NCBI RefSeq assembly: GCF_009914755.1
Contig: NC_060933.1
From: the human T2T-CHM13v2.0 reference genome, Homo sapiens
DNA length: 64,000 nucleotides
Reading direction: 5' to 3' (one strand)
A model generated the notes under the pieces. That model ran no database searches and had not been told where the DNA came from. It saw nothing but the letters and a program-made list of their open reading frames with translations. Both the position numbers and the translations under genes were made by a program. The stretch's first letter is position 1. Each line of letters opens with the position of its first letter. Positions 5,001 to 45,131 of the stretch are shown here, one piece after another.

Positions 5001-7289
5001 CAGTCCATTCCATGCCATTCCACTCAGGTTGATTCCATTCCTTTCAATTCCAGTTGGGTTGAATCCATTCCATTCCATTCCATTCCATTCGATTCCATTA
5101 CATTACACTCGGGTTGATTCCAATCCATTCCATTCCATTCCATTCCATTCCATTCCATTCCATTCCATTCCATACCATTCCATTCCATTCCATTCCATGC
5201 CATTCCACTCGGGTTGATTCCATTCCTTTCCATTCCTTTCGAGTTGAACCCATTCCATTCCATTGCATTCCATTCCATTCCATTCCATTGCACACGGGTT
5301 CATTCCATTCCATTCCATTCCATTCCATTCCATTCCATTTCGTTCTTTTCCATTCTATTCCGTACCATTCCATTCCATTCCATTCCATTCCATTCCATGC
5401 CATTCCACTCGGGTTTATTCCATTCCTTTCCATTGCATTCGGGTTCAATCCATTCCATTCCCTTCCATTCCATTCAATTCCATTCCATTGCACTCGGGTT
5501 GATTCCATTCCATTCCATGCCATTCCATTTCATTCCATTCCATTCCATTCCATTCCATTCTATTCCGTTCCATTCCATTCAATTACATTCGTATTGATTC
5601 TTTTTAATTCCCTTACACTCCATTACATTCCATTCCATTCGGGTACTTTCCATTCCATTCCATTCCATTCCACTGCATTCTATTGCACTCGGGTTGATTG
5701 ATTCCATTCCATTGCATTCCATTCCATTCCATTCCCCTGAACTCGGGTGGATTCCATTCCATTCCATTCCATTCCATTCCGTTCCATTCCATTCCATTCC
5801 ATTCTGTTCAGGTTAATTCCATTCCATTCCATTCCCTTCCATTCCATTCCATTCTATTCCATTCCATTCCATTCCATTCCTCTGCACTCAGTTTGATTCC
5901 ATTCCATTCCATTCCATTCCATTCCGTTCCATTCCATTCCAATCCACTTTATTCGCATTAATTCCATTCAATTCCATTCCATTACATTCCATTGCAATCG
6001 AGTTGATTCCATTCCATTCCATTCCATTCCATTCAAGTCCTTTCCATTCCATTCCACTCGTGTTGATTCCATTTTATTAGTTTCCATTCCATTCCATTCC
6101 CTTCCATTCCACTCTGGTTGATTCCATTCCTTTCCATTCTACTCGATTGCATTCCCTTCTAATCCACTTGGATTGATTCCATTCCATTCCGTTCCATTCC
6201 ATTCCATTTCGTTCCATTCCATTCTATTCCATTCCATTCCATTCCATTCCTTTCCATTCCATTCCGTTCCATTCCATTCCATTCCATTCCATTTCTTTCC
6301 ATTCCATTCTATTCCATACCATTCCATTCCATTCCGTTGCATGCCATTCCACTCGGGTTGATTCCATTGCTTTCCATTCCATTTGGGTTGAATCCATTCC
6401 ATTCCATTCCATTCCATTCCATTCCATTCCATTCCATTCCGTTCCATTCCATTCCATTACATTCGTATTGATTGTATTCAATTCCCTTACACTCCATTCC
6501 ATTCCATTCCATTCGGGTTGTTTCCATTCCATTCAATTCCTTTCCACTCCATTCCATTGCAGTCGGGTTGATTCCATTCCATTCCATTCCATTCCTTTCC
6601 ATTCCATTTCGTTCCATTCCATTCTATTCCATACCATTCCATTCCATTCCATTCCATTCCATTCCATTCCATTCCATGCCATTCCACTCGGGTTGATTCC
6701 TTTCCATTCCATTCCATTCGGGTTGAAACCATTCCATTCCATTCTATTCCATTGCATTCCGGATGATTGCATTCCATTGCCTTGCATTCAATTGCATTCC
6801 CCTGCACCCGGGTTGATTCCATTCCATTCCATTCCATTCCATTCCGTTCCCTTCCATTCCATACCATTCCATTCCATTCCAATCCATTCTATTCGGGTTA
6901 ATTCCATTCCATTCCATTCCATTCCATTCAATTTCATTGTAATCGGGTTGATTCCATTCCGTTCCATTCCATTGCATTCCATTCCATTCCATTCCATTCC
7001 ATTCCATTCCACTCGGGTTGATTCCATTCCTTTCCATTCCATTCGGGGTGAAGCCTTTCCATTCCATTCCATTCCTTTCGATTCCATTCCATTGCACTCG
7101 GGTTGATCCCATTCCTTTGCATTCCATTCCATTCCATTCCATTCCATTCCATTACATTCCATTCCGTTCCATTCAATTCCATTACATTCGGATTGATTCT
7201 ATTCAATTCCCTTACAATCCATCACATTCCATTCCATTCGGTTTGTTTCCATTCCATTCCATTCCATTAAATTCCATTCCATTCCATTC

Positions 7290-10200
7290 CATTCCGTATG
7301 ATTCCATTCCATTGCATTCTATTCCATTCCATTCCCCTGCACTCAGGTGGATTCCATTCTATTCCATTCCATTCCATTCCATTCCATTCCATTCCATTGA
7401 AATCGAGTTGATTCCATTCCATTCTATTCCATTCAATTCCATTCCATTCCATTCTATTCTGGTTAATTCCATTGCATTCCATTCCATTCCCTTCCATTCC
7501 ATTCCATTCTATTCCATTCCATTCCATTCTATTAGGGTTAATTCCATTCCATTCCATTCCATTCCATTCCATTCCATTCCATTGCAATCGAGTTGATTCC
7601 ATTCCATTCTATTCCATTCCATTCCATTCAATTCCATTGAACTCGGGTTGATTCCATTCCATTCCATGCCATTCCATTTCATTCCAATCCATTGCCTTCC
7701 ATTCCATTCCATTCCTCTGCACTCGGGTTGATTCCATTCCTTTCCATTCCATTCCATTCCATTCCATGCCATTCCACACGGGTTGATTCCATTACTTTCC
7801 ATTCCATTCGAGTAGAATCCATTCCATTCGATTCCATTCCATTCCATTCCATTCCATTGCTCACGGATTCATTGCATTCCATTCCATTCCATTCCATTCT
7901 ATTCCATTTCATTCCATTTCTTTCCATTCCATTCTCTTCCGTACCATTCCATTCCATTCCATTCCACTTCATTCCATGCCATTCCACTCGGGTTTATTCC
8001 ATTCCTTTCCATTCCATTCGGGTTGAATTCATTCCATTCCATTCCATTCCATTCCATTCCATTGCACTCGGGTTGATTCCATTCCATTCCATTCCATTTC
8101 ATTCCATTCCCTTCCATTCCATTCCCTTCCATTCCATTCCATTCCATGCCATTCCACTCGGGTTGATTCCATTCCTTTCCATTCCATTCCAGTTGAACCC
8201 ATTCCATTCTATTCCATTCCATTCCATTCCATTCCATTCCATTGCACACGGGTTCATTCCATTCCAATCCATTCCATTCCATTCCATTCCATTCCATTTC
8301 GTTCCATTCCATTCTATTCCTTACCATTCCATTCCATTCCATTCCCTTCCATGTCATTTCACTCGGGTTTATTCCATTCCTTTCCATTCCATTCCGGTTG
8401 AATCCATTCCATTCCATTCCATTCCATTCCATTGAACTCGGGTTGATTCCATTCCATTCCATGCCATTCCATTTCATTCCATTCCATTCCATTCCGTTCC
8501 ATTCCATTCCATTCCTTTCCGTTCAATTCCATTACATTCGGATTGATTCTTTTTAATTCCCTTACACTCAATTACATTCCATTCCATTCGGGTACTTTCC
8601 ATTCCATTCCATTCCATTCCTCTGCATTCTATTGCACTCGGGTTGATTGATTCCATTCCATTGCATTCCATTCCATTCAGGATGATTCCATTCCATTGTA
8701 TTCCCTTCCATTCCATTCCCCTGCACTCGTGTTGATTCCATTCCTTTCCATTCCATTCCATTCCGTTCCATTCCATTCCATTACATTCGTACTGATTGTA
8801 CTCAATTCCCTTACACTCCATTACATTCCATTCCATTCGGGCTGTTTCCATTCCATTACATTCCATTCCACTCCATTCCATTGCAGTCAGGTTGATTCCA
8901 TTCCATTCCATTCCATTTCATTCCATTCCATTCCATTTCGTTCCATTCTTTCTATTCCTTAACATTCCATTCCGTTCCATTCCATTCCATTCCATGCCAT
9001 TCCACTCGGGTTGATTCCATTCCTTTCCATTCCATTCGGGTTGAATCCATTCCATTCCATTCCATTCCATTCCTTTCCGTATGATTCCATTCCATTGCAT
9101 TCCATTCCATTCCATTCACCTGCACTCGGGTGGATTCCATTCTATTCCATTCCATTCCATTCCATTCCATTCCATTCCATTCCATTCCATTCCATGCCAT
9201 TCCATTCCATTCTATTCGGGTTAATTTCATTCCATTCCATTCCATTCCATTTCATTCCATTCCATTCCCTTTCATTCCATTCCATTCCTTTCCATTCCAT
9301 TCCATTGAAATCGAGTTGATTCCATTCCATTCCATTCCATTCCATTCCATTCCATTCCATTCCATTCCATTCCGTTCCAATGCATTCCATTCTATTCAGG
9401 TTAATTCCATTCCATTCCATTCCATTCCATTCCATTCCATTCCATTCCATTCCATTCTATTAGGGTTAATTCCATTCCATTCCATTCCATTCCATTCCAT
9501 TCCATTCCATTCCATTTCAATCGAGTTCATTCCATTCCATTCCATTCCATTCCGTTCCATTCCATTCAATTCCTGATGATTCCCTTCCATTTCCTTCCAT
9601 TCCATTCCATTCCCCTGCACTCGGGTTGATTCCGTTCCATTCCATTCCATTCCATTCCATTCCATTCCATTCCATTCCATTCCATTTCGTTCCATTCCAT
9701 TCTATTCCGTACCATTCCATTCCATTCCATTCCATTCCATTCCATTCCATTCCATTCCATGCCATTCCACTCGGGTTGATTCCATTCCTTTCCATTCCAT
9801 TCGAGTTGAACCCATTCCATTCCATTCCATTCCATTCCATTCCTTTCCATTCCATTCCATTTCGTTCCATTCCATTCTCTTCCGTAGTATTCCATTCCAT
9901 TCCATTCCACTCCATTCCATGCCATTCCACTCGGGTTTATTCCATTCCTTTCCATTCCATTCGGGTTGAATTCATTCCATTCCATTCCATTCCATTCCAT
10001 TCAATTCCATTACATTGCACTCGGGTTGATTCCATTCCATTCCATTCCATTTCAATCCATTCCCTTCCATTCCGTTTCATTCCATTCCATTCCATTCCAT
10101 TCCATGCCATTCCACTCGGGTTGATTCCATTCCTTTCCATTCCATTCTGGTTGAACCCATTCCATTCCATTCCATTCCATTCCATTCCATTGCACACGGG

Positions 10201-10620
10201 TTCATTCCATTCCATTCCATTCCATTCCATTCCATTCCATTCCATTCCATTTCGTTCCATTCCATTCTATTCCTTACCATTCCATTCCATTCCTTTCCCT
10301 TCCATGCCATTTCACTCGGGTTTATTCCATTCCTTTCCATTCCATTCGGGTTGAATCCATTCCATTCCATTCCATTCCATTTGATTCCAATCCATTGAAC
10401 TCGGGTTGATTCCATTCCATTCCAAGCCATTCCATTTCATTCCATTCCATTCCATTCCATTCCATTCCATTCCGTTCCATTCCATTCCATTACATTCGGA
10501 TTGATTCTTTTTAATTCCCTTACACTCCATTACATTCCTTTCCATTCGGGTAATTTCCATTCCATTCCATTCCATTCCACTGCATTCTATTGCACTCGGG
10601 TTGATTGATTCCATTCCATT
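7290..10620 (+). repeat. ~1.9-kb-offset direct duplication in the left arm
   Basis: ATTCTCTTCCGTA 7931/9874, GGTTGAATTCATT 8021/9964, ATTGAACTCGGG 8431/10394, GGGTTGATTGATT 8640/10598, CTATTAGGGTTAA 7528/9457. Confidence 0.75.
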
Positions 10621-10759
10621 GCATTCCATTCCATTCCATTCCCCTGCTCTCGGGTTGATCCCATTGCATTGCATTCCATTCCATTCCATTCCATTCCATT
10701 CCATTCCGTTCCATTCCATTCCATTCCATTCTGTTCAGGTTAATTCCATTCCATTCCAT

Positions 10760-13700
10760 TCCATCCCATTGCAATCTAGTTGATTCCATTGCATTCCATT
10801 CCATTCCATTCCATTCCATTCCATTGCATTCCATTCCATTCCATTCTCCTGCACTCAGATTGATTCCATTCCATCCCATTCCATTCCATTCCGTTCCATT
10901 ACATTCCATTCCATTCTATTCGCGTTAATTCCATTCCATTCCATTCCATTACATTCCACTGCAATCGAGTTGATTCCATTCCATTCCGTTCCATTCCATT
11001 CCATTCCATTCCATTTCGTTCCATTCCATTTTATTCTGTACCATTCCATTCCATTCCATTCCATTCCATTCCATTCCATTCCATGCCATTCCACTCGGGT
11101 TGATTCCATTGCTTTCCATTCCATTTGGGTTGAATCCAATCCATTCCATTCCATTCCATTCCATTCCATTCCATTCCATTCCATTGCACTAGGTTTGATT
11201 CCATTCCACTGCATTCCATTCCATTCCATTCCGTTCCATTCCATTCCATTACATTCGGATTGATTGTATTCAATTCCCTTACACTCCATTACATTCCATT
11301 CCATTCGGGTTGTTTCCATTCCATTACATTCCATTCCACTCCATTCCATTGCACTCAGGTTGATTCCATTCCTTTCCATTCCATTTCGTTCCATTCCATT
11401 CTATTCCGTACCATTCCATTCCATTCCATTCCATTACATGCCATTCCACTCAGGTTTATTACATTCCTTTCCATTCCATTCGGGTTGAATCCATTCCATT
11501 CCATTCCATTCCATTCCATTCCATTCCATTCCTTTGCACTCGGGTTGATTCCATTCCATTCCCTGCCATTCCATTTCATTCCATTCCATTCCATTCCATT
11601 CCATTCCATTCCATTCCATTCCGTTCCATTCCATTCCATTACATTCGGATTGATTGTATTCAATTCCCTTACACTCCATTACATTCCATTCCATTCGGGT
11701 TGTTTCCGTTCCATTACATTCCATTCCACTCCATTCCATTGCATTCAGGTTGATTCCATTCCATTCCATTCCATTCCATTCCATTCCATTCCATTCCATT
11801 CCATTCCATTTCGTTCCATTCCATTCTATTCCGTACCATTCCATTCCATTCCATTCCATTCCATGCCATTCCACTCGGGTTGATTCCATTCCTTTCCATT
11901 CCATTCGGGTTGAATCCATTCCATTCCATTCCATTGCATTCCGTTCCATTCCATTCCCCTGCAATCGGGTGGATTCCATTCTATTCCATTCCATTCCATT
12001 CATTCCATTCCATTCCATTCCATTTCGTTCCATTCCATTCTATTCCATACCTTTCCATTCCATTCCATTCCATTCCATTCCATGCCATGCCATTCCACTC
12101 GGGTTGATTCCATTCCTTTCCATTCCATTCTAGTTGAATCCATTTCATTGCATTCCATTCCATTCGATTCCATTCAATTGCACACGGGTTCATTCCATTC
12201 CATTCCATTCCATTCCATTCCATTCCATTCCATTCCATTTCGTTCCATTCCATTCTATTCCATACCATTCCCTTCCATTCCATTCCATTCCACTCCATTC
12301 CATGCCATTCCACTCGGGTTTATTCCGTTCCTTTCCATTCCATTCGGGTTGAATCCATTCCATTCGGGTTGAATCCATTCCATTCCATTCAATTCCATTC
12401 CATTCCATTCCATTCCATGCCATTCCACTCGGGTTGATTCCATTCCTTTCCATTCCATTCGAGTTGAACCCATTCCATTCCATTCCATTGCATTCGATTC
12501 CATTCCATTCCATTGCTCACGGGTTCATTCCATCCAATTCCATGCCATTCCATTGCATTCCATTCCATTTCGTTCCATTCCATTCTACTCCTTACCATTG
12601 CATTCCATTCCATTCCCTTCCATGCCATTTCACTCGGGTTTATTCCTTTCCTTTCCATTCCATTCGGGTTGAATCCATTCCATTCCATTCCATTGCATTC
12701 CATTCCATTCCATTCCCCTGTAATCGGGTGGATTCCATTCTATTCCATTCCATTCCATTCCATTCCATTCCATCCCATTCCATTCCATTTCGTTCCATTC
12801 CATTCTATTCCGTACCTTTCCATTCCATTCCATTCCATTCCATTCCATGCCATGCCATTCCACTCGGGTTGATTCCATTGCTTTCCATTCCATTTGGGTT
12901 AAATCTAATCCATTCCATTCCATTCCATTCCATTCCATTCCATTGCACTAGGTTTGATTCCATTTCACTGCATTCCATTCCATTCCATTCCATTAAATTC
13001 CATTCCACTCGGGTTGATTCCATTCCTTTCCATTCCATTCGTGTTGAATCCATTCCATTCCATTCCATTACTTTCGATTCCATTCCATTGCACTCGGGTT
13101 GAACCCATTCCATTGGATTCCATTCCATTCCATTGCATTCCATTCCGTTCCATTCCATTCCATTACATTCGTATTGATTCTATTCACTTCCCTTACACTC
13201 CATTCCATTCCATTACATTCGTATTGATTCTATTCAATTCCCTTACACTCCATTCCATTCCATTCCATTCGGGTTGTTTCCATTCCATTCCATTCCATTC
13301 CACTCCATTCCATTGCAATCGGGTTGATTCCATTCCATTCCATTCCCTTCCATTCCATTCCATTCCATTACATCCCATCCAATTGCAATCGAGTTGATTC
13401 CATTGCATTCCATTCCATTCCATTCCATTCCATTGCATTCCATTCCATTCCATTCCCCTGCACTCAGATTGATTCCATTCCATCCCATTCCATTCAATTC
13501 CGTTCCATTCCATTCCATTCCATTCTATTCGCGTTAATTCCATTCCATTCCATTACATTCCATTGCAATCGAGTTGATTCCATTCCATTCCGTTCCATTC
13601 CATTCCATTCCATTCCATTTCGTTCCATTCCATTCTATTCCGTACCATTCCATTCCATTCCATTCCATTCCATTCCATTCCATTCCATGCCATTCCACTC

Positions 13701-15030
13701 GGGTTGATTCTATTGCTTTCCATTCCATTTGGGTTGAATCCAATCCATTCCATTCCATTCCATTCCATTCCATTCCATTGCACTAGGTTTGATTCCATTC
13801 CACTGCATTCCATTCCATTCCATTCCGTTCCATTCCATTCCATTACATTCGGATTGATTGTATTCAATTCCTTACACTCCATTACATTCCATTCCATTCG
13901 GATTGATTGTATTCAATTCCTTACACTCCATTACATTCCATTCCATTCGGGTTGTTTCCATTCCATTCCATTCCATTCCATTCCATTCCATTCCATTCCA
14001 TTGCACTCAGGTTGATTCCATTCCATTCCATTCCATTCCATTCCATTCCATTTCGTTCCATTCCATTCTATTCCGTACCATTCTATTCCATTCCATTCCA
14101 TTCCATGCCATTCCACTCGGGTTTATTCCATTCCTTTCCATTCCATTCGGGTTGAATCCATTCCATTCCATTCCATTCCATTCCATTCCATTCCATTCCA
14201 TTGCACTCGGGTTGATTCCATTCCATTCCCTGCCATTCCATTTTATTCCATTCCATTCCATTCCATTCCATTCCATTCCATTGCATTCCATTCCATTCCA
14301 TTCCAGTCCATTCCATTACATTCGGATTGATTGTATTCAATTCCCTTACACTCCATTACATTCCATTACATTCGTGTTGTTTCCGTTCCATTACATTCCC
14401 TTCCACTCCATTCCATTGCACTCAGGTTGATTCCATTCCATTCCATTCCATTCCATTCCATTCCATTCCATTCCATTTCGTTCCATTCCATTCTATTCCC
14501 TACCATTCCATTCCATTCCATTCCATTCCATGCCAATCCACTCGGGTTGATTCCATTCCTTTCCATTCCATTCGGGTTGAATCCATTCCATTCCATTCCA
14601 TTCCATTCCATTCCATTCCATTCCATTCCATTCCCCTGCAATCGGGTGGATTCCATTCTATTCCATTCCATTCTATTCCATTCCTTTCCATTCCATTCCA
14701 TTCCATTCCATTTCGTTCCATTCCATTCTATTCCGTACCATTCCTTTCCATTCCATTCCATTCCATTCCATGCCATGCCATTCCACTCGGGTTGATTCCA
14801 TTCCTTTCCATTCCATTCTAGTTGAATCCATTCCATTGCATTCCATTCCATTCGATTCCATTCAATTGCACACGGGTTCATTCCATTCCATTCCATTCCA
14901 TTCCATTCCATTTCGTTCCATTCCATTCTATTCCGTACCATTCCCTTCCATTCAATTCCATTCCACTCCATTCCATGCCATTCCACTCGGGTTTATTCCA
15001 TTCCCTTCCATTCCATTCGGGTTGAATCCA
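10760..15030 (+). repeat. ~2.6-2.7-kb-offset direct duplication in the left arm
   Basis: CTATTCGCGTTAA 10916/13525, CCCTGCCATT 11561/14228, CTAGTTGAATCC 12130/14818, CAATTGCACACGGG 12175/14863. Confidence 0.8.
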
Positions 15031-16750
15031 TTCCATTCCATTCCATTCCATTCCATTCCATTCCATGCCATTCCACTCGGGTTGATTCCATTCTTTTCCA
15101 TTCCATTCGAGTTGAACCCATTCCATTCCATTCCATTCCATTCCATTCCACTCCATTCCGTTCCACTCGGGTTGATTCCATTCCTTTCCATTCCATTCTG
15201 GTTGAAACCATTCCATTCCATTCCATTCCTTTCGATTCCATTCCATTTCACTCGGGTTGATCCCATTCCATTGCATTCCATTCCATTCCATGGCATTCCA
15301 TTCCGTTCCATTCCATTCCATTACATTCGTATTGATTCTATTCAATTCCCTTACTCTCCATTACATTCCATTCCATTCGGGTTGTTTCCATTCCATTCCA
15401 TTCCATTCCACTCCATTCCATTGCAATCGGGTTGATTCCATTCCATTCCATTGCATTCCATTCCATTTCATTCCATTCCATTCCATTCCATTCCGTATGA
15501 TTCCATTCCATTGCATTCCATTCCATTCCATTCCACTGCACTCGGTTGGATTCCATTCTATTCCATTCCATTCCATTCCATTCCATTCCATTCCATTCCA
15601 TTCCATTCCATTCCATTCTATTCGGGTTAATTTCATTCCATTCCCTTCCATTCCATTCCATTCCATTCCATTCCATTCCATTCCAATGAAATCGTGTTGA
15701 TTCCATTCCATTCCATTCCATTCCATTCCATTCCATTCTATTCGTGTTAATTCCATTCCATTCCATTCCATTCCATTCCCTTCCATTCCATTCCATTCCA
15801 TTCCATTCCATTCCATTCCATTCTATTAGGGTTAATTCCATTCCATTCCATTCCATTCCATTCCATTCCATTCCATTCCACTCCATTCCATGCCATTCCA
15901 CTCGGGTTTATTCCATTCCTTTCCATTCCATTCGGGTTGAATCCATTCCATTCCATTCCATTCCATTCCATTCCATGCCATTGCACTCGGGTTGATTCCA
16001 TTCCTTTCCATTCCATTCGAATTGAACCCATTCCATTCCCTTCCATTCCATTCCATTCCATTGCATTCCATTCCATTGCTCACGGGTTCATTCCATTCCA
16101 TTCCATTCCATTCCATTCCATTCCATTCCGTTCCATTCCATTCCATTCCATTCTGTTCAGGTTAATTCCTTTCCATTCCATTGCCTTCCATTCCATTCCA
16201 TTCCATTCCATCCCATTGCAATCTAGTTGATTCCATTGCATTCCATTCCATTGCATTCCATTCCATTGCATTCCATTCCATTCCATTCCCCTGCACTCAG
16301 ATTGATTCCATTCCATCCCATTCCATTCCATTCCGTTCCATTACATTCCATTCCATTCTATTCGCGTTAATTCCATTCCATTCCATTACATTACATTCCA
16401 TTGCAATCGAGTTGATTCCATTCCATTCCGTTCCATTCCATTCCATTCCATTCCATTTCGTTCCATTCCATTCTATTCTGTACCATTCCATTCCATTCCA
16501 TTCCATTCCATTCCATTCCGTGCCATTCCACTCAGGTTGATTCCATTGCTTTCCATTCCATTTGGTTTGAATCCAATCCCTTCCATTCCATTCCATTCCA
16601 TTCCATTCCATTGCACTAGGTTTGATTCCATTCCACTGCATTCCATTCCATTCCATTCCGTTCCATTCCATTCCATTACATTCGGATTGATTGTATTCAA
16701 TTCCCTTACACTCCATTGCATTCCATTCCATTCGGGTTGTTTCCATTCCA

Positions 16751-16770
16751 TTCCATTCCGTGTGCAATGG
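16751..16770. other. Satellite strand-inversion breakpoint
   Basis: ...ttccattccattCCGtgtgcaatggaatgg...: CATTC repeats switch to GGAAT repeats within about 10 bp and no foreign sequence is inserted. ORFs 16537..17025(+) and 16473..17231(-) switch from IPFHS to MEWNG here. Confidence 0.97.
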
Positions 16771-18305
16771 AATGGAATGGAATGGAATGGAATGGGTTCA
16801 ACTAGAATGGAATGGAAAGGAATGGAATCAACCCGAGTGGAATGGCATGGAATGGAATGGAATGGAATGGAATGGAATGGAAAGAAATGGAATGGAAGGG
16901 AATGGATTGAAATGGAATGGAATGGAATGGAATCAACCCGAGTGCAATGTAATGGAATTGAATGGAATGGAATGGAATGGAATGGAATGAATTCAACCCG
17001 AATGGAATGGAAAGGAATGGAATAAACCCGAGTGAAATGGCATGGAATGGCGTGGAATGGAATGGAATGGAATACTACGGAATAGAATGGAATGGAACGA
17101 AATGGAATGGAATGGAATGGAATGGAATGGAATGGAATGGAATGAACACGTGAGCAATGGAATGGAATCGAATGGAATAGAATGGAATGGAATGGATTCA
17201 ACTCGAATGGAATGGAAAGGAATGGAATCAACCCGAGTGGAATGGCATGGAATGGAATGGAATGGAATGGAATGGAATGGAATGGAATGGAACGGAATGG
17301 AATGGAATCAACTCGATTGCAAAGGAATGTAATGGAATGGAATGGAACGGAATTAACGCAAATAGAATGGAATGGAAAGGAATGGAACGGAATGGAATGG
17401 AAAGGAATGGAATGGAATAAATCTGAGTGCAGGGGAATGCAATGGAATGGAATGCAATGGAATGGAATGGAATGGAATGCAATGGAATCACCTCGATTGC
17501 AATGGGATGGAATGGAATGGAATGGAATGGAAGGGAATGGAATGGAATGGAATTAACCTGAACAGAATGGAATGGAATCGAATGGAATGGAATGGAATGC
17601 AATGGAATGGAATCAATCAACCCGAGTGCAATAGAATGCAGAGGAATGGAATGGAATGGAATGGAATGGAATGGAATGGAATGGAATGAAATGGAATGGC
17701 AGGGAATGGAATGGAATCAACCCGAGTGCAAAGGAATGGAATGGAATGGAATGGAATGGAATGGAATGGAATGGATTCAACCCGAATGGAATGGAAAGGA
17801 ATGGAATAAACCTGAGTGGAATCGCATGGAATGGAATGGAATGGAATGGAATGGAATGGTACGGAATAGAATGGAATGGAACGAAATGGAATGGAATGGA
17901 ATGGAATGGAATGGAATCAACCTGAGTGCAATGGAATGGAGTGGAATGGAATGTAATGGAATGGAAACAACCCGAATGGAATGGAATGTAATGGAGTGTA
18001 AGGGAATTGAATACAATCAATCCGAATGTAATGGAATGGAATGGAACGGAAGGGAATGGAATGGAATGCAGTGGAATGGAATCAAACCTAGTGCAATAGA
18101 ATGGAATGGAATGGAATGGAATGGAATGGAATGGAATGGAATGGAATGGATTGGATTCAACTCAAATGGAATGGAAAGCAATGGAATCAACCCGAGTGGA
18201 ATGGCATGGAATGGAATGGAATGGAATGGAATGGAATGGTACAGAATAGAATGGAATGGAATGAAATGGAATGGAATGGAATGGAATGGAACGGAATGGA
18301 ATGGA

Positions 18306-21300
18306 ATCAACACGAGTGCAGTGTAATGGAATCGAATGGAATGGAATGGAATGGAATGGATTCAACACGAATGGAATGGAAAGGAATGGAATAAACCCGC
18401 GTGGAATGGCATGGAATGGAGTGGAATGGAATGGAATGGAATGGAATGGAATCAACCCGAGTGCAAAGTAATGGAATCGAATGGAATGGAATGGAATGGA
18501 AAGGATTCAACACGAATGGAATGGAAAGGAATGGAATAAACCCGAGTGGAATGGCATGAAGTGGAGTGGAATGGAATGGAATGGAATGGAATGGAATGGT
18601 ACGGAATAGAATGGAATGGAACGAAATGGAATGGAATGGAATGGAATGGAATAGAATGGAATGAACCCGTGTGCAATGGAATGGAATCGAATGGAATGGA
18701 ATGGATTGGAATGGATTCAACTCGAATGGAATGGAAAGGAATGGAATCAACCCGAGTGGATTGGCATGGAATGGAATGGAATGGAATGGAATGGAATGGA
18801 ATGGAATGGTACGGAATAGAATGGAAAGGAACGAAATGGAATGGAATGAAATGGAATGGAATGGAATGGAATGGAATGGAATGGAATGGAATGGAATCAA
18901 CCCGAGTGCAGGGGAATGGAATGGAATTGAAGGCAATGGAATGGAATCATCCGGAATTGAATGGAATGGAATGGAATCAACTCGATTGCAATGGAATGGA
19001 ATGGAATGGAATGGAATGGAATGGAATGGAATGGAATGGAATGGAATGGAATTAACCCGAATAGAATGGAATGGAATGGAATGGAAGTAAATGGAATGGA
19101 AGGTAATGAACCCGAGTGCAGGGGAATGGAATGGAATGGAATGCAATGAAATGGAGTCATCCGGAATGGAACGGAAAGGAATGGAATGGAACCAACCCGT
19201 GTGTAATGGAATTGAAAGGAATGGAATGGAATGGAATGGAATGGAATGGAATGGAATGGATTCAACCCGAATGGAATGGAAAGGAAGGGAATCAACCCAA
19301 GTGGAATGGCATGGAATGGAATGGATTGGAATGGAATGGAATGGTACCGAATGGAATGGAATGGAATGGTACCGAATAGAATGGAATGGAACGAAATGGA
19401 ATGGAATGGAATGGAATGGAATGGAATGGAATGGAATGGAAACAACACGAGTGCAATGTAATGGAATCGAATGGAATGGAATGCAATGGATTCAACCCGA
19501 ATGGAATGGAAACGAATGGAATAAAACCGAGTGGAATGGCATGGAATGGAGTCTAATGGAATGGAATGGAATGGAATGGTATGGAATAGAATGGAATGGA
19601 ACGAAATGGAATGGAATGGAATGGAATGAAATGAACCCGTGTGCAATGGAATGGAATGGAATGGAATGGAATGGAATGGATTCAACTCGAATGGAATGGA
19701 AAGGAATGGAATCAACCCGAGGGGAATGGCATGGAATGGAATGGAATGGAATGGAATTAACCCTAATAGAATGGAATGGAATGGAATGGAATGGAATGGA
19801 ATGGAATGGAATGGAAGGAAATGGAATGGAATGGAAGGGAATGGAATGGAATGGAATGGAATGGTACGGAATAGAATGGAATGGAACGAAATGGAATGGA
19901 ATGGAATGGAATGGAACGGGATGGAATGGAATGGAATGGAATGGAATGGGATGGAATGGAATGGAATGGAATCAACCCGAGTGCAGGGGAATGGAATGGA
20001 ATGGAAGGCAATGGAATGACATCATTCGGAATTGAATGGAATGGAATGGAATGGAATGGAATCAACTCGATTGAAATGGAATGGAATGGAATGGAATGGA
20101 ATGGAATGGAATGGAATGGAATGGAAGTGAATGGAATGGAATGTAATGAAACCGAGTGCAGGGGAATGGAATGGAATGGAATGCAATGGAATGGAGTCAT
20201 CCGGAATGGAACGGAATGGAATGGAATGGAATCAACCCGAGTGCAATGGAATGGAATGGAATGGAAAGGAATGGAATGGAATGGACTCAACCCGAATGGA
20301 ATGGAAAGGAATGGAATCAACCCGAGAGGAATGGCATGGAATGGAATGGAATGGAATGGAGTGGAATGGTACAGAATAGAATGTAATAGAACGAAATGGA
20401 ATGGAATGGAATGGAATTGAATGGAATCATTCCGAGTGGAATAGAAGGGAATGTTTTCGAGTGGAATGAAAAGGAATGGAATCAACCAGAGTGGAATGGA
20501 ATGGAATCGAGTGGAATGGAATGCAATCGAATGTAATGGAAAGGAATAGAATGGAATCAACCCGAGTGGAATGGAATGGAAAGGACTGGAATGGAATGGA
20601 ATGGAATGCAATGGAATCAACTCGATTGCAATGAAATGGAATGGAATGGAATGGAATGGAATGGAATGGAATTAACCGGAATAGAATGGAATTGAATGGA
20701 ATGGAAAGGAATGGAATGGAATAGAATGGAATGGAATATAATGGAATGGAATGGATTCAACTCGAATGGAATGGAAAGGAATGGAATCAACCCGAGTGGA
20801 ATGGCATGGAACGGAATGGAATGGAATGGAATGGAAGGAAATGGAATGGAATGGAATGGAATGGAATGGAATGGAATGGAATGGAATCAACCCGAGTGCA
20901 ATGGAATGGAATGGAATGGAAAGGAATGGAATGGAATGGATTCAACCCGAATGGAATGGAAAGGAATGGAATCAACCCGAGAGGAATGGCATGTAATGGA
21001 ATGGAATGGAATGGAGTGGAATGGTACGGAATAGAATGTAATGGAACGAAACGGAATGGAATGGAATGGAATGGAATGGAATGGAATGGAATGGAATCAT
21101 TCCGAGTGGAATAGAAGGGAATGTTTTCGAGTGGAATGAAGAGGAATGGTATCAACCAGAGTGGAATGGAATGGAATTGAATGGAATGGAAAGGAATAGA
21201 ATGGAATCAACCCGAGTGGAATGGAATGGAAAGGACTGGAATGGAATGGAATGGAATGCAATGGAATCAACTCGATTGCAATGAAATGGAATGGAATGGA

Positions 21301-22980
21301 ATGGAATGGAATGGAATGGAATAGAATGGAAAGGAATCACTCCAAGTGCAGGGGAATTTAATGGAATGGAATGCAGTGGAATGGAATCATCCGGAATGGA
21401 ATGGAATGGAATGGAACGGAATGGAATGGAATCAACTCGAATTCAATGGAATGGAAAGGAATGGAATGGAATGGAATGCAATGGAATCGTACGGAATAGA
21501 ATGGAATGGAACGAAATGGAATGTAATGGAATGGAATGGAATGGAATGGAATGTAATGGAACGGAATGGAATGGAATGAACCCGCGTGCAATGGAATGGA
21601 ACGGAATGGAATGGAATGGAATGGAATGGAATGGAATGGAATGGGTTCAACTCGAATGGAATGGAAAGGAATGGAATCAACACGAGTGGAATGGCATGGA
21701 ATGGAATGGAATTGAATGAAATGGAATGGAATGGAATGGAATGAAATGTAATGGAATGGAAAGGAATGGAATCAACACGAGTGGAATGGCATGGAATGGA
21801 ATGGAATTGAATGAAATGGAATGGAATGGAATGGAATGAAATGTAATGGAATGGAATGGAATGGAATCAACCCGAGTGCAATGTAATGGAACCGAATGGA
21901 ATGGAATGGAATGGATTCAACCCGAATGGAATTAAAAGGAATGGAATATACCCGAGTGGAATGGCATGGAATGGAGTGGAATGGAATGGAATGGAATGGA
22001 ATGGAATGGTACGGAATAGAATGGAATGTAACGAAATGGAATGTAAGGGAATGGAATAGAATGGAATGGAATGAACCCGTGTGCAATGGAATATAATGGA
22101 ATGGAATGGAATGGAATGGATTCAACTCTAATGGAATGGAAGGGAATGGAATCAACGCGAGTGGAATGGCATGGAATGGAATGGAATGGAATGGAATGGA
22201 ATGGAAGTAAATGGAATGGAATGGAATGAACCCGAGTGCAGGGGAATGGAATGGAATGGAATGGAATGGAATGGAATGGAATGGAATGGAATGGAATGCA
22301 GTGGAATGGAATCAAACCTAGTGCAATTGAATGGAATGGAATGGAATGGAATGGAATGGAATGGAATGGAATGGATTCAACCCAAATGGAATGGAAAGCA
22401 ATGGAATCAACCCGAGTGGAATGGCATGGAATGGAATGGAATGGAATGTAATGGAATGGAATGGAATGGAATGGAATGGTACGGAATAAAATGGAATGGA
22501 ACGAAATGGAATGGAATGGAACGGAATACAATGGAATCATTCTGAGTGGAATAGAAGGGAATGAATTCGAGTGGAATGGAAAGGAATGGAATCAACCAGA
22601 GTGGAATGGAAGGGAATGGAATGGAATGGAAACTAATAAAATGGAATCAACACGAGTGGAATGGAATGGAAAGGACTTGAATGGAATGGAATGGAATGGA
22701 ATGGAATCAAGTCGATTGCAATGGAATGTAATGGAATGGAGTGGAATGGAATTAACGCGAATAGAATGGAATGGAATGGAATGGAATGGAATGGAATGGA
22801 ATGGAATGGAATCAACCTGAGTGCAGGGGAATGGAATGCAATGGAATGCAATGGAATGGAATGGAATGGAATGGAATCAACGCGAGTGCAGGGGAATGGA
22901 ATGTAATGGAATGCAATGGAATGGAATCTTCCGGAATGGAATGGAATGGAATGGAATGGAATGAAATGCAATAGATTCAA
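18306..22980 (-). repeat. Detached, shorter relative of the HOR (copy 0)
   Basis: Same ordered markers: ATCAACACGAGTGCAGTG 18306, ATAAACCCGCGTGG 18391, GAGTCTAATGG 19549, GACATCATTCGG 20018, TCACTCCAAG 21337, CAAGTCGATTGC ~22707. Several HOR segments are missing. Confidence 0.85.
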
Positions 22981-24199
22981 CTCGATTGCAATGGAATTGA
23001 ATGGAATGGAATGGAATGAAATGCAATGGATTCAACTCGATTGCAATGGAATGGAATAGATTGGAATGGAATGGAATGCAATGGAATGGAATGGAATGGA
23101 ATGGAATTAACCCGAATAGAATGGAATGGAATGGAATGGAACGGAATGGAACGAAATGGAATAGAATGGAATGGAATGGAATGGAATGGTATGGAATGGA
23201 ATGGAATGGTACGGAATAGAATGGAATGGAACGAATTGTAATGGAATGGAATTGAATGGAATGGAATGGAATGGAATGGAATGGAATCAACGCGAGTGCA
23301 GGGGAATGTAATGGAACGGAATGCAATGGAATGGAAACATCCGGAATGGAATGGAATGGAATGGAAAGGAATGGAATCAACCCGAGTGCAATGGAATGGA
23401 GTGGAATGGAATGGAATGGAATGGAACAACCCGAATGGAATGGAATGTAATGGAGAGTAAGGGAGTTGAATAGAATCAATCCGAATGTAATGGAATGGAA
23501 TGCAACAGATTGGAATGGAATGGAATGGGATGGAATGCAATGGAATGGAATCAACCCGAGTACAATGGAATGGAATGGAATGGAATGGAATGGAATGGAA
23601 TGGAATGGAATGGAATGGAATGCCTTCAAACCGAATGGAATGGAAAGGAATGGAATCAACACGAGTGGAATGGAATGGAATGGAATGGAATCTTCCGGAA
23701 TGGAATGGAATGGAATGGAATGGAATGGAATGGAATGAAATGCAATGGATACAACTCGATTGCAATGGAATGGAATAGAATGGAATGGAATGGAATGGAA
23801 TGGAATGGAATGGAATGGAATTAATCCGAATAGAATGGAATGGAATGGAAAGGAACAGAACGGAACGGAATGGAATGGAATGGAATGGAATGGTATGGAA
23901 TGGAATGCAATGGTACGGAATAGAATGGAATGGAACGAATTGCAATGGAATGGAATTGAATGGAATGGAATGGAATGGAATGGAATGGAATGGAATCAAC
24001 GCGAGTGCAGGGGAATGTAATGGAACGGAATGCAATGGAATGGAATCATCCGGAATGGAATGGAATGGAATGGAATGGAATGGAATGGAATCAACCCGAG
24101 TGCAATGGAATGGAGTGGAATGGAATGGAATGGAATGGAACAACCTGAATGGAATGGAATGTAATGGAGAGTAAGGGAGTTGAATAGAATCAATCCGAA

Positions 24200-27100
24200 T
24201 GTAATGGAATGGAATGCAACGGAATGGAATGGAATGGAATGGAATGGAATGCAATGGAATGGAATCAACTCGAGTACAATGGAATGGAATGGAATGGAAT
24301 GGAATGGAATGGAATGAAATGGAATGGAATTGAATGGAATGGAATGCCTTCAAACCGAATGGAATGGAAAGGAATGGAATCACCACGAGTGGAATGGAAT
24401 GGAATGGAAAGGAATGGAATGGAATAGAATGGTACGGAATAGAATGGAATGGAACGAACTGGAATGGAATGGAATGGAATGGAATGGAATAGAATGGAAT
24501 GGAATGGAATCGTTCTGAGTGGAATAGGAGGGAATGTATTCGAGTGGAATGGAAAGGAATGGAATCAACCAGATTGGAATGGAAGGGAATGGAATGGAAT
24601 GGAAACTAATAGAATGGAATCAACCCGAGTGGAATGGAAAGGAAAGGAATGGAATGGAATGGAATGGAATGGAATTGAATGGAATCAACTACATTGTAAT
24701 GGAATGGAATGGAATGGAATGGAATGGAATGGAATTAACCCGAATACAATGGAATGGACTAGAATGGAACGGAATGGAGTGGAATGGAATGGAATCAACC
24801 CGAGTGCAGGGGAATGGAATGGAATGGAATGCAATGGAATGGAATCATCCGTAATGGAATGGAATGGAATGGAATGCAAAGCAATGGAATCAACTCGATT
24901 GCAATGGAATGGAATGGAATGGAAAGGAATAGAACGGAATCAACCCGAGTGTAATGGAATGGAAAGGACTGGAATGGAGTGGAATGGAATGGAATGGAAT
25001 GGAATGGAATCAACTCGATTGGAATGGAATGGAATGGAATGGAAAGGAATGGAATGGAATTTACCCGAATAGAATGGAATGGAATGGAATGGAACGGAAT
25101 GGAATGCAATGGAATGGAATGGAATCAACCCGACTGCAGGGGAATGGAATGGAATGGAATGCAATAGAATGGAATCATCCGGAACGGAATGGAATGGAAT
25201 GGAATGGAATCAACTCGATTGCAATCGAATGGAATGGAATGGAATTAACCCGAATAGAATGGAATGGAATGGAATGGAACGGAACGGAATGGAATGGAAT
25301 GGAATGGAATGAAATGGAACGGAACGGAACGGAATGCAATGGAATGGAATGGAATCAACGCGAGTGCAGGGGAATGGAATGGAATGGAATGCAATGGAAT
25401 GGAATCTTCCTGAATGGAATGGAATGGAATGAAATGCAATGGATTCAACTCGATTGCAATGGAATGGAATGGAATGGAATGGAATGGAACGGAATGGAAC
25501 GGAACGGAATGGAATGGAATGGAATGGAATGGAATGGTATGGAATGGAATGGAATGGTACGGAATAGAATGGAATGGAACGAATTGTAATGGAATGGAAT
25601 TGAATGGAATGGAATGGAATGGAATGAAATGGAATCAACGCGAGTGGAGGGGAATGTAATGGAACGGAATGCAATGGAACGGAATCATCCGGAATGGAAT
25701 GGAATGGAATGGAATAGAATGGAATCAACCCGAGTGCAATGGAATGGAGTGGAATGGAATGGAATGGAATGGAACAACACGAATGGAATGGAATGTAATG
25801 GAGAGTAAGGGAGTTGAATAGAATCAATCCGAATGTAATGGAATGGAATGCAACGGATTGGAATGGAATGGAATGCAATGGAATAGAATCAACCCGAGTA
25901 CAATGGAATGGAATGGAATGGAATGGAATGGAATGGAATGGAATGGAATGCCTTCAAACCGAATGGAATGGAAAGGAATGGAATCAACACGAGTGGAATG
26001 TAATGGAATGGAATGGAAGGGAATGGAATGGAATGGAATGGAATGATACGGAACAGAATGGAATGGAACGAAATGGAATGGAATGGAATGGAATGGAATG
26101 GAATGGAACGGAATGGAATGGAATGGAATGGAATGGAATCTTTCCGAGTAGAATAGGAGGGAATGTATTCGAGTGGAATGGAAAGGAATGGAATCACCCA
26201 GAGTGGAATGGAAGAGAATGGAATGGAATGGAAACTAATAGAATGGAATCAACCCCAGTGGAATGGAATGGAAAGGACTGGAATGGAATGGAATGGAATG
26301 AAATGGAATGAAATGGAATGGAATCAACTCGATTGGAATGGAATGGAATGGAATGGAATGGAATGAAATGGAATGGAATCAACACGATTGCAATGGAATG
26401 GAATGGAATGGAATGGAATGGAATGGAATGGAATTAACCCGAATACAATGGAATGGAATGGAATGGAATGGTACGGAATGGAGTGGAATGGAATGGAAAC
26501 AACCCGAGTGCAGGGGAATGGAATGGAATGGAATGCAATGGAATGGAATCATCCGGAATGGAATGGAATGGAATGGAATGCAAAGCAATGGAATCAACTC
26601 GATTGCAATGGAATGGAATGGAATGGAAAGGAATACATTGGAATCACCCTGAGTGGAATGGAATGGAAAGGACTGGAATGGAGTGGAATGGAATGGAATG
26701 GAATGGAATGGAATCAACTCGATTGGAATGGAATGGAATGGAATGGTACGGAATAGAATGGAATGGAACGAATTGTAATGGAATGGAATTGAATGGAATG
26801 GAATGGAATGGAATGGAATCAACGTGAGTGCAGGGGAATGTAATGGAACGGAATGCAATGGAATGGAATGGAATGGAAAGGAATACATTGGAATCAACCC
26901 GAGTGGAATGGAATGGAAAGGACTGGAATGGAGTGGAATGGAATGGAATGGAATGGAATGGAATCAACTCGATTGGAATGGAATGGAATGGAATGGTACG
27001 GCATAGAATGGAATGGAACGAATTGTAATGGAATGAAATTGAATGGAATGGAATGGAAAGGAATGGAATCAACGCGAGTGCAGGGGAATGTAATGGAACG

Positions 27101-30100
27101 GAATGCAATGGAATGGAATCATCCGGAATGGAATGGAATGGAATGGAATGGAATGGAATGGAATCAACCCGAGTGCAATGGAATGGAGTGTAATGGAATG
27201 CAATGGAAGGGAACAACCCGAATGGAATGGAATGTAATGGAGAGTAAGGGAGTTGAATAGAATCAATCCGAATGTAATGGAATGGAATGCAACGGAATGG
27301 AATGGAATGGAATGGAATGGAATGCAATGGAATGGAATCAACCGGAGTACAATGGAATGGAATGGAATGGAATGGAATGGAAAGGAATGGAATGATAAGG
27401 AATAGAATGGAATGGAACGAAATGGAATGGAATGGAATGGAATGGAATGGAATGGAATGGAATGGAATGGTTCCGAGTGGAATAGGAGGGAAAGTATTCG
27501 AGTGTAATGGAAAGGAATGGAATCAACCAGAGTGGAATGGAAGGGAATGGAATGGAATGGAAACTAATAGAATGGAATCAACCCGAGTGGAATGGAATGG
27601 AAAGGACTGGAATGGAATGGAATGGAATGGAATCAACTCGATTGCAATCGAATGGAATGGAATGGAATTAACCCGAATAGAATGGAATGGAATGGAATGG
27701 AACGGAACGGAATGGAATGGAATGGAATGGAATGGAATGGAATTGAACGGAACGGAATGGAATGGAATGGAATGGAATGGAATGGAATCAACGCGAGTAC
27801 AGGGGAATGGAATGGAATGGAATGCAATGGAATGGAATCTTCCGGAATGGAATGGAATGGAATGGAATGGAATGGAATGAAATGCAATGGATTCAACTCG
27901 ATTGCAATGGAATGGAATAGAATGGAATGGAATGGAATGGAATGGAATGGAATTAATCCGAATAGAATGGAATGGAATGGAAAGGAACAGAACGGATCGG
28001 AATGGAATGGAATGGAATGGAATGGTATGGAATGGAATGGAATGGTACGGAATAGAATGCAGTGGAACGAATTGCAATGGAATGGAATTGAATGGAATGG
28101 AATGGAATGCAATGGAATGGAATCAACGCGAGTGCAGGGGAATGTAATGGAACGGAATGCAATGGAATAGAATCATCCGCAATGGAATGGAATGGAATGG
28201 AATGGAATGGAATCAACCCGAGTGCAATGGAATGGAGTGGAATGGAATGGAATGGAATGGAACAACCCGAATGGAATGTAATGTAATGGAGAGTAAGGGA
28301 GTTGAATAGAATCAATCCGAATGTAAAGGAATGGAATGCAACGGAATGAAATGGAATGGAATGGAATGGAATGCAATGGAATGGAATGGAATGAAATGGA
28401 ATGGTATGGAATGGAATGGTACGGAATAGAATGGAATGGAACGAATTGTAATGGAATGGAATTGAATGGAATGGAATGGAATTGAATGGAATCAACGCGA
28501 GTGCAGGGGAATGTAATGGAACGGAATGCAATGGAATGGAATCATCCGGAATGGAATGGAATGGAATGGAATGGAATGGAATCAACCCGAGTGCAATGGA
28601 ATGGAGTGGAATGGAATGGAATGGAATGGAATGGAATGGAATGGAATGGAATGGAATCAACGCGAGTGCAGGGAAATGGAATGGAATGGAATGCAATGGA
28701 ATGGAATATTCCGGAATGGAATGGAATGGAATGGAATGGAATGGAATGGAATGGAATGGAATCAACCCGAGTGCAATGGAATGGAGTGGAATGGAATGGA
28801 ATGGAATGGAACAGCCCGAATGGAATGTAATGTAATGGAGAGTAAGGGAGTTGAATAGAATCAATCCGAATGTAAAGGAATGGAATGCACGGAATGAAAT
28901 GGAATGGAATGGAATGGAATGCAATGGAATGGAATCAACTCGAGTACAATGGAATGGAATGGAATGGAATTGAATGCAATGGAATGGAATCAACTCGAGT
29001 ACAATGGAATGGAATGGAATGGAATGGAATGGAATGGAATGGAATGGAATGGAATGGAATGGAATGGAATGGAATGGAATGGAATGGAATGCCTTCAAAC
29101 CGAATGGAATGGAAAGGAATGGAATCACCACGAGTGGAATGGAATGGAATGGAAAGGAATGGAATGGAATAGAATGGTACGGAATAGAATGGAATGGAAC
29201 GAACTGGAATGGAATGGAATGGAATGGAATGGAATGGAATGGAATGGAATGGAATAGTTCTGAGTGGAATAGGAGGGAATGTATTCGAGTGGAATGGAAA
29301 GGAATGGAATCAACCAGATTGGAATGGAAGGGAACGGAATGGAATGGAAACTAATAGAATGGAATCAACACGAGTGGAATGGAATGGAAAGGACTGGAAT
29401 GGAATGGAATGGAATGGAATTGAATGGAATCAACTACATTGTAAGGGAATGGAATGGAATGGAATGGAATGGAATTAACCCGAATACAATGGAATGGACT
29501 AGAATGGAACGGAATGGAGTGGAATGGAATGCAATCAACCCGAGTGCAGGGGAATGGAATGGAATGGAATGCAATGGAATGGAATCATCCGGAATGGAAT
29601 GGAATGGAATGGAATGCAAAGCAATGGAATCAACTCGATTGCAATGGAATGGAATGGAATGGAAAGGAATAGAACGGAATCAACCCGAGTGTAATGGAAT
29701 GGAAAGGACTGGAATGGAGTGGAATGGAATGGAATGGAATGGAATGGAATCAACTCGATTGGAATGGAATGGAATGGAATGGAAAGGAATGGAATGGAAT
29801 TAACACGAATAGAATGGAATGGAATGGAATGGAACGGAATGGAATGGAATGGAATGGAATGGAATCAACCCGACTGCAGGGGAATGGAATGGAATGGAAT
29901 GCAATAGAATGGAATCATCCGGAACGGAATAGAATGGAATGGAATGGAATCAACTCGATTGCAATCGAATGGAATGGAATGGAATTAACCCGAATAGAAT
30001 GGAATGGAATGGAATGGAAGGGAACGGAATGGAATGCAATGGAATGGAATGAAATGGAACGGAACGGAACGGAATGCAATGGAATGGAATGGAATGGAAT

Positions 30101-45116: not shown

Positions 45117-45131
45117 GGAATCTTCCGGAAT
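45117..45131. promoter_or_regulatory. Perfect three-unit heat-shock element (nGAAnnTTCnnGAAn), representative of about 21 copies
   Basis: gGAAtcTTCcgGAAt matches the canonical HSF1 HSE. Other copies lie near 114, 748, 22927, 23691, 25405, 27838, 28707, 30155, 32897, 34125, 35903, 36796, 45979, 46852, 52182, 53045, 58505, 59358, 61468 and 61833. The match is seen in the sequence; binding is not shown. Confidence 0.5.

What the first reader, a model, noticed from the sequence alone, without database searches (positions are those of the whole stretch)
16741..16800. Clean strand-inversion junction with CCG microhomology and no inserted DNA
Seen: 16.7 kb of CATTC abuts 47 kb of GGAAT at ttccattCCGtgtgcaatgg. 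The left side ends in ...CATTCC(G). The right side begins inside the common word aacCCGTGTGCAATGG (intact at 18664, 19634 and 41538). The two sides therefore share CC/CCG at 16758-16760. Inference: a microhomology-mediated end-joining or template-switch inversion with no transposon or spacer. Established: strand switches occur in T2T HSat arrays but are uncommon, so this is a near-unique landmark.
Basis: partly seen in the sequence, partly recalled or inferred. Interest (0 to 1): 0.8.

Follow-up and report, generated by a model that had tools for sequence, protein, structure and literature searches.

The report
Multi-copy strand switch in chr9 HSat3
The clean head-to-head flip in this chromosome 9 satellite array is real, but the same junction occurs about 80 times in the array, so it is an inherited, amplified junction rather than a near-unique landmark.

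Summary
At window 16758-16760 an ATTCC-rich block (1-16757) meets a GGAAT-rich block (16761-64000). There is no foreign DNA between them, and both arms are HSat3B5.

The interpretation mostly fails. All copies lie on chr9 at 52.3-76.4 Mb, in both orientations.

Homology between copies extends hundreds of bases to kilobases beyond the junction, at 93-100% against an array background of about 80%. The copies are therefore identical by descent: one founder junction was carried along as the array amplified.

This copy has a twin 10.62 Mb away with no mismatches in 3.2 kb. The twin lies inside the published multi-megabase 9qh+ tandem duplication of CHM13.

More than 200 inversion breakpoints are already published for this array.

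The overlap is 2 nt (CC) when judged against the nearest paralogues. Random joins of the two arms give 2 nt or more 13.5% of the time, so MMEJ cannot be inferred.

The arms are not palindromic, so this is not a fold-back.

Low interest; the phenomenon is already known.

The parts
1..16757 (-). Left arm. HSat3B5 with the GGAAT strand on the minus strand, so it reads ATTCC-rich on plus.
   Evidence: GC skew about -0.63. Only ATTCC pentamers are present. The HSat3B5 24-mer from Altemose 2014 Table 1 occurs 8 times on the plus strand, all in this arm.
16758..16759 (.). CC, the 2-nt overlap that either parental sequence could have supplied.
   Evidence: Right-parent paralogues read ...GAAC|CCGTGTGC. 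Left-parent paralogues read ...CCATTCC|ATTCCACTCC. Chance of an overlap of 2 nt or more is 0.135.
16749..16775 (+). Junction 27-mer 'J1', which marks a multi-copy junction family.
   Evidence: 80 exact copies and 85 with up to 2 mismatches, all on chr9 at 52.34-76.36 Mb. The reversed-pattern control gives 0.
16760..64000 (+). Right arm. HSat3B5 with the GGAAT strand on plus.
   Evidence: GC skew about +0.64. Only GGAAT pentamers are present. The HSat3B5 24-mer occurs 10 times on the minus strand, all in this arm.
14000..17600 (.). About 3.6-kb junction-bearing module. It is shared at 94-100% per 200 bp, in inverted orientation, with chr9:68,258,788-68,262,518, and its ends are sharp.
   Evidence: Global alignment profile and k-mer dot plots.
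16721..16817 (.). Local hairpin- or cruciform-capable inverted repeat. A stem of about 20 bp of (CCATT)n/(AATGG)n surrounds the loop at CGTGTGCAA.
   Evidence: The DNA fold gives -35.5 kcal/mol against -14.9 +/- 2.9 for shuffles, z = -7.1. Any head-to-head join of a pentamer satellite would be expected to do this.
17601..23300 (+). Right flank that recurs in direct orientation beside the inverted module copy, matching chr9:68,263,281 onward.
   Evidence: Mostly 97-100% per 200 bp. The k-mer diagonal lies at +169.5 kb.
26000..40000 (+). Segment duplicated in direct orientation about 166.9 kb downstream.
   Evidence: k-mer dot plots.

Best explanation
This is one copy of a multi-copy, identical-by-descent strand-switch junction, here called J1, inside the 9q12 HSat3B5 array.

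Inferred: a single ancestral rearrangement joined a CATTC-strand stretch (...GGGTTGTTTCCATTCCATTCCATTCC) head-to-head to a GGAAT-strand stretch, at the common word (AAC)CCGTGTGCAATGG. The join had a 2-nt overlap and no insert. The repair pathway cannot be told from one 2-nt junction.

Shown: the junction, together with at least about 0.6 kb on its left and about 1 kb on its right, was then carried along by duplication, inversion and unequal exchange as the array expanded. That produced at least 80 copies in both orientations.

Shown plus published: the copy in this window is one of a pair created by the recent multi-megabase 9qh+ tandem duplication of CHM13.

The junction has no known function. 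It is a by-product of array dynamics, and it marks where the GGAAT-rich strand switches.
For: 1. The exact 27-mer occurs 80 times, all on chr9 at 52.34-76.36 Mb, with a reversed-control count of 0. With up to 2 mismatches it occurs 85 times.

2. A 201-bp probe across the junction matched full-length at 93-100% in 40 of the 40 candidates scored, on both strands; 1289 candidates were found in the first look.

3. Ten copies were read as sequence (L001-L008, which includes this window's own, plus L029 and L030). Identity to this copy stays at about 93-100% for 0.5 to at least 1.5 kb on the left and 0.9 to at least 1.5 kb on the right. It then drops to the array background of about 75-80%.

4. A marker word 1.04 kb right of the junction sits at +0.57 to +1.21 kb, in the same relative orientation, in 41 of 80 copies: 23 of the 33 plus-strand copies and 18 of the 47 minus-strand copies.

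5. The twin at 57,470,966 shows 0 mismatches and 10 gap columns in 3206 aligned columns. 203 marker positions form collinear, same-strand chains at offsets of 8.72-8.83 Mb and 10.575-10.656 Mb. [quoted passage not shown]

6. Other junctions in the neighbouring 200 kb are also families. The convergent junction K has 27 exact copies and 30 with up to 3 mismatches; J2 has 2 copies.

7. Published counts agree: over 200 inversion breakpoints in this array, and switch number correlating with array length at r = 0.90 across assemblies.
Against: 2. 37 of 80 copies lack the exact +1 kb marker. This could be divergence or a different right flank.

3. The flanks are mosaic. Left-side homology ends at about -0.5 kb in some copies and beyond -2.7 kb in others. 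The amplified unit is therefore not one fixed block, and the history includes recombination that I could not resolve.

4. Both halves of the 27-mer are common words of this array. Recurrent formation is made unlikely by the flank identity but is not formally excluded.

5. No read-level check of this assembly position was possible.
Confidence: 0.85

Rival explanations
1. One reading: a single local microhomology-mediated end-joining or template-switch inversion happened at this locus, making it a near-unique landmark.
For: The join is clean with no insert. A CC overlap is present.
Against: There are 80 exact copies of the junction 27-mer. A twin copy has identical flanks. A 2-nt overlap is expected in 13.5% of random joins. 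Over 200 breakpoints are already published for the array.
Confidence: 0.03
2. Recurrent hotspot: the same join forms repeatedly. The common word CCGTGTGCAATGG and (CATTC)n would be preferred partners, for example through hairpin-prone GGAAT DNA and repeated template switching.
For: Both half-sites are abundant, with 24 CCGTGTGCAATGG words in 64 kb. The junction region folds strongly, z = -7.1. Three further junction classes exist, so inversions do form more than once.
Against: Identity of 93-100% extends hundreds of bases to kilobases beyond the join and includes non-consensus variants, against a background of about 80%. The join is at exactly the same phase in all 80 copies.
Confidence: 0.05
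3. Fold-back inverted duplication or an assembly fold-back chimera: the right arm is a reverse-complement copy of the left arm.
For: The arrangement is head-to-head with a short hairpin-capable centre.
Against: The reverse complement of the left arm matches the right arm at only 61-92% per 200 bp, no better than unrelated array segments. The same holds in L029 and L030. The junction recurs in 80 places with diverged and differing flanks, which an artefact at one locus would not produce.
Confidence: 0.04
4. Flip-flop variant of the main explanation: once a head-to-head junction exists, its two arms are inverted repeats. Recombination between them repeatedly inverts the central module in place, without creating a new visible strand switch. 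This would account for the mix of plus and minus copies.
For: At chr9:68,259,625 the 3.6-kb module is inverted relative to this window. The right flank (window 17601-23300 and 26000-40000) is nevertheless in direct orientation at the matching offset. Groups of copies identical or near-identical over 201 bp contain both plus and minus members.
Against: Only one independent example exists, because that copy and its twin count as one. In that example the left flanks are unrelated at about 75%, and about 760 bp of extra sequence sits between the module and the direct flank. In 41 of 80 copies the +1 kb marker keeps its side and orientation relative to the junction, which fits inversion of larger segments.
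Confidence: 0.25

Closest known systems
Inversion breakpoints (strand switches) annotated in the T2T-CHM13 chr9 HSat3B5 array (Altemose et al., 10.1101/2021.07.12.452052)
   Same: It is the same array and the same kind of feature: adjacent blocks of one satellite in opposite polarity. The paper states that this array holds over 200 such breakpoints (section 7 read in full).
   Different: The passages I read give counts, not junction sequences. Here the junction is shown to belong to a family of 80-85 copies. Tables S6 and S7 of that paper, which may list this breakpoint, could not be opened.
CEN09 HSat3 strand switches across 320 East Asian assemblies (10.64898/2026.07.22.740206)
   Same: Hundreds of switches are reported, and their number scales with array length at r = 0.90 (passages). 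Co-amplification predicts exactly this.
   Different: The authors describe the switches as randomly distributed 'stochastic byproducts' of expansion. The data here indicate that many are copies of a few founder junctions rather than independent events.
Recent multi-megabase 9qh+ tandem HSat3 duplication of CHM13 (Nurk et al., 10.1101/2021.05.26.445798)
   Same: It explains the identical twin of this junction 10.62 Mb away and the collinear marker chains.
   Different: It accounts for only one doubling. The other roughly 40 independent positions need older rounds of amplification.
Mosaic inversion structure of beta-satellite arrays on the acrocentric short arms
   Same: Nurk et al. say the same mosaic inversion pattern seen in BSat arrays was also found in some HSat arrays (passage).
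   Different: It is a different satellite family. No sequence comparison was made here.

Membership tests
HSat3 subfamily B5 (9q12) | Derived from (CATTC)n and carrying the subfamily-specific 24-mer listed for HSat3B5 in Altemose 2014 Table 1 | tested here: met
   The 24-mer, taken from the paper text, occurs 18 times in the window and 0 times in shuffles. Eight copies are on plus in the left arm and 10 are on minus in the right arm.
HSat3 subfamily B5 (9q12) | Located in the large chr9 pericentromeric array | tested here: met
   The window is contig 9 at 68,076,001-68,140,000 (hub note).
Satellite strand-switch (inversion breakpoint) | Two adjoining blocks of the same satellite in opposite polarity with no other sequence between them | tested here: met
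Unique or near-unique genomic landmark | The junction k-mer occurs once, or only a few times, in the assembly | tested here: not met
   80 exact copies and 85 with up to 2 mismatches.
Microhomology-mediated end joining (MMEJ) junction | Overlap between the two parental ends longer than chance allows. The usual threshold of 2-20 nt is recalled, not from a call. | tested here: inconclusive
   The overlap is 2 nt (CC) against the nearest paralogues, which are 94-95% identical. For random joins, P(2 nt or more) = 0.135 and P(3 nt or more) = 0.024. The true parental sequences are unknown.
Fold-back inversion or palindromic inverted duplication | The arms are reverse complements of each other outward from the junction | tested here: not met
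   Identity between the arms is 61-92% per 200 bp over 4 kb, which equals the array background. The same holds in two other copies.
Transposon- or insertion-mediated rearrangement | Non-satellite or mobile-element sequence at the join | tested here: not met
   The sequence was read directly. Pentamer content is continuous up to the join.

The most novel reading that the evidence does not exclude
Most of the hundreds of strand switches in the 9q12 HSat3 array are copies of a handful of founder junctions, not independent inversions. Here J1 has about 85 copies and K about 30, with small classes J2 and J3. Inversion formation would then be rare and amplification frequent. Junction k-mers would serve as lineage and copy-number markers for reconstructing how the 9qh heteromorphism grows. 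Head-to-head modules may also flip in place by recombination between their own inverted arms.
Probability: 0.5. Interest if true: 0.4.

Novelty: already known. Interest (0 to 1): 0.22.

Why it matters
As submitted, the finding does not matter much. Strand switches in this array are published in the hundreds, and this junction cannot anchor anything because its k-mer is present 80 times.

One modest point may be of value. The junction sequences fall into a few identical-by-descent families. This turns 'over 200 inversions' into a few inversion events plus amplification. It also gives simple k-mer markers for tracing expansion of the 9q12 block across assemblies.

I found no paper stating this. 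The supplements of the two key preprints could not be seen.

Tried and rejected
1. A whole 264-kb self-BLAST timed out, and a smaller megablast printed nothing. I replaced both with exact k-mer dot plots and global alignments.

I used exact marker-word searches instead, plus one 6-kb fetch.

3. A 5.6-kb DNA query against the genome was uninformative. Only 5 of 13,389 candidates were scored, and none was a J1 copy.

5. Fold-back or palindrome origin is rejected because the arms match only at background identity. Two copies with the +1 kb marker word on both sides looked like palindromes. On reading them (L029, L030) they are not.

6. A generic census of ATTCC-to-GGAAT switches returned 371 overlapping matches per strand, and the listing was cut at chr9:53.96 Mb. 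In the listed chr9 part, 10 of 13 distinct sites are J1 and 3 are a further class, CATTCCGTAATGG. This is a partial count only.

7. A 3-nt (CCG) or longer overlap was considered. It is not favoured because the closest left-arm paralogues shown continue with A rather than G.

8. Heat-shock-element-like spacing of TTC and GAA at the junctions was checked by eye and is not canonical. I did not pursue it.

Full report
**What is there.** The window is HSat3 throughout. From 1 to about 16757 the plus strand is ATTCC-rich, with GC skew -0.60 to -0.69 in every 1-kb bin. From 16761 to 64000 it is GGAAT-rich, with skew +0.59 to +0.71. In 100-bp bins the pentamer content changes from ATTCC only to GGAAT only within the single bin 16701-16800. 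No 200-bp bin elsewhere carries the minority strand. The sequence reads ...GGGTTGTTTCCATTCCATTCCATTCC|GTGTGCAATGGAATGG... with nothing non-satellite at the join.

The HSat3B5-specific 24-mer from Table 1 of Altemose 2014 (PMC4022460, passages seen) occurs 18 times. Eight copies are on the plus strand, all in the left arm. Ten are on the minus strand, all in the right arm. Both arms therefore belong to the same subfamily in opposite polarity.

**The junction is not unique.** The 27-mer CATTCCATTCCGTGTGCAATGGAATGG has 80 exact matches in the assembly (33 forward, 47 reverse). All lie on contig 9 between 52,339,068 and 76,360,091, and the reversed-pattern control gives 0. With up to 2 mismatches there are 85. 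Spacing between neighbouring copies ranges from 9.5 kb to 1.34 Mb.

A 201-bp probe across the junction matched full-length at 93-100% in all 40 candidates that the tool scored, out of 1289 candidates in its first look, on both strands.

**The copies are identical by descent.** In the ten copies I could read as sequence (L001-L008, which includes this window's own, plus L029 and L030), identity to this window stays at about 93-100% for 0.5 to at least 1.5 kb leftward and 0.9 to at least 1.5 kb rightward. It then falls to the array background of about 75-80%. Unrelated parts of the array match the flanks at only 80-83%.

A marker word 1.04 kb right of the junction lies at +0.57 to +1.21 kb, in the same relative orientation, in 41 of 80 copies. 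Thirty-seven copies lack an exact match, and 2 have it on the other side. Markers 2.7-2.9 kb to the left are shared by only 8 and 5 copies respectively. The conserved core is therefore roughly -0.6 to +1 kb, and the flanks beyond it are mosaic.

**This copy in particular.** The copy at 57,470,966 (plus strand) is a twin, with 0 mismatches and 10 gap columns in 3206 aligned columns. The 203 positions of five markers form long collinear, same-strand chains. One runs from 52.34-54.47 to 61.08-63.29 Mb at offsets of 8.72-8.83 Mb. The other runs from 54.93-60.70 to 65.50-71.35 Mb at offsets of 10.575-10.656 Mb. [quoted passage not shown] (10.1101/2021.05.26.445798, passages). The junction in the window was thus inherited by duplication, not made here.

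**Neighbourhood.** I fetched the next 200 kb and found four more switches:
- A convergent junction K at chr9:68,212,666 and again at 68,245,655, inside a 33-kb tandem duplication.
- A second divergent junction J2 at 68,236,282.
- J1 in reverse orientation at 68,259,625.

K has 27 exact copies and 30 with up to 3 mismatches, all on chr9. J2 has 2 copies, the second being the 9qh+ twin.

A generic search for ATTCC-to-GGAAT switches was truncated. In the listed chr9 stretch (52.34-53.96 Mb), 10 of 13 distinct sites are J1 and 3 are another class, CATTCCGTAATGG. One 25-mer form of that class has 2 copies.

**Relation of the plus and minus copies.** Between this window and the reverse copy 167 kb away, a module spanning window about 14000-17600 is inverted at 94-100% per 200 bp and has sharp ends. 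Window 17601-23300 and 26000-40000 recur beside the reverse copy in direct orientation. The left flanks are unrelated at about 75%, and about 760 bp of extra sequence lies between the module and the direct flank.

This looks like an in-place flip of a head-to-head module, which would leave the strand pattern unchanged. It is, however, a single independent example with only one matching flank. I rank it as a possibility, not a result.

**Mechanism of the founder join.** The closest paralogue of the right arm (95% identity, window 10186 on the minus strand) reads ...GGAATGAAC|CCGTGTGCAATGG. The closest paralogues of the left arm (95% and 94%, window 2817 and 11332) read, in the CATTC orientation...CCATTCC|ATTCCACTCC. 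Against these proxies the overlap is CC (2 nt), and the G belongs to the right parent.

In 200,000 random joins of a left-arm position to a right-arm position, an overlap of 2 nt or more arose in 13.5% and of 3 nt or more in 2.4%. One 2-nt junction cannot separate classical end-joining, MMEJ and template switching.

The arms are not reverse complements of each other. Identity is 61-92% per 200 bp over 4 kb, which is the array background, and the same holds in L029 and L030. A fold-back duplication or a fold-back chimera is therefore not supported.

The 120 bases around the join fold into a hairpin of -35.5 kcal/mol, z = -7.1. Any head-to-head join of this pentamer repeat would be expected to do so.

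**Artefact question.** I could not look at reads. A mis-join at one locus would not, however, recur 80 times with diverged and differing flanks. Independent assemblies also show hundreds of CEN09 HSat3 strand switches, whose number tracks array length at r = 0.90 (10.64898/2026.07.22.740206, passages).

**Comparison with what is known.** Altemose et al. (10.1101/2021.07.12.452052, section 7 read in full) state that the chr9 HSat3B5 array contains over 200 inversion breakpoints. [quoted passage not shown] The phenomenon, and very probably this breakpoint in the strand annotation, is therefore already known.

What I did not find in print is that the junction sequences form a few large identical-by-descent families. 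The searches were: HSat3 + inversion + chr9 + strand, HSat3B5, satellite + inversion breakpoints + HSat3 + microhomology, and strand switches + HSat3. The 2026 preprint calls the switches random, stochastic by-products. The supplementary tables of both preprints were not available to me and may bear on this.

**Verdict.** An MMEJ or template-switch origin is neither supported nor excluded. The feature is an ordinary, already-described property of this array, with a modest added detail about junction families.

Noticed in passing
outside the window: chr9:68,212,666 and 68,245,655 (loci L016 and L019): A convergent (GGAAT-to-ATTCC) junction K, ...GAATGCAATGGAAT|GCACTCGGGTTGATTCC..., has 27 exact and 30 near-exact copies on chr9. 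A 14-bp perfect inverted repeat flanks a 17-nt centre. Its arms are 89-90% reverse-complementary for 200-1000 bp, slightly above background, so an old fold-back origin is possible.
   Followed up: partly
outside the window: chr9:68,236,282 (locus L018): A second divergent junction J2, CACTCGGGTTGATTCC-ATGGAAT-GGAATCAACCCGAGTG, has 16-nt perfect inverted arms around a 7-nt centre. It has only 2 copies, this one and its 9qh+ twin at 57,614,460.
   Followed up: partly
outside the window: chr9:~68,204,000-68,259,000: A roughly 33-kb tandem duplication carries K, giving the local pattern G-K-C-J2-G-K-C-J1(reverse).
   Followed up: partly
window 40900-61100: The word CCGTGTGCAATGG recurs in sets spaced about 6.2-7.0 kb apart (for example 47432, 53615, 59933 and 44261, 51312, 57625). 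This suggests a nested repeat unit of about 6-7 kb in this part of the right arm. Near the junction no such regular period is visible.
   Followed up: no
chr9:52.34-71.35 Mb (marker positions only): Two collinear marker chains, at offsets of about 8.7 and about 10.6 Mb, outline the published 9qh+ tandem duplication. The second traversal carries about 2 Mb of extra sequence between 63.3 and 65.5 Mb.
   Followed up: partly
chr9:52,748,5xx, 53,795,4xx and 53,839,7xx (match lines): A further divergent junction class, CATTCCGTAATGGAATGG, resembles J1 with four bases fewer at the join but has a different right flank.
   Followed up: partly
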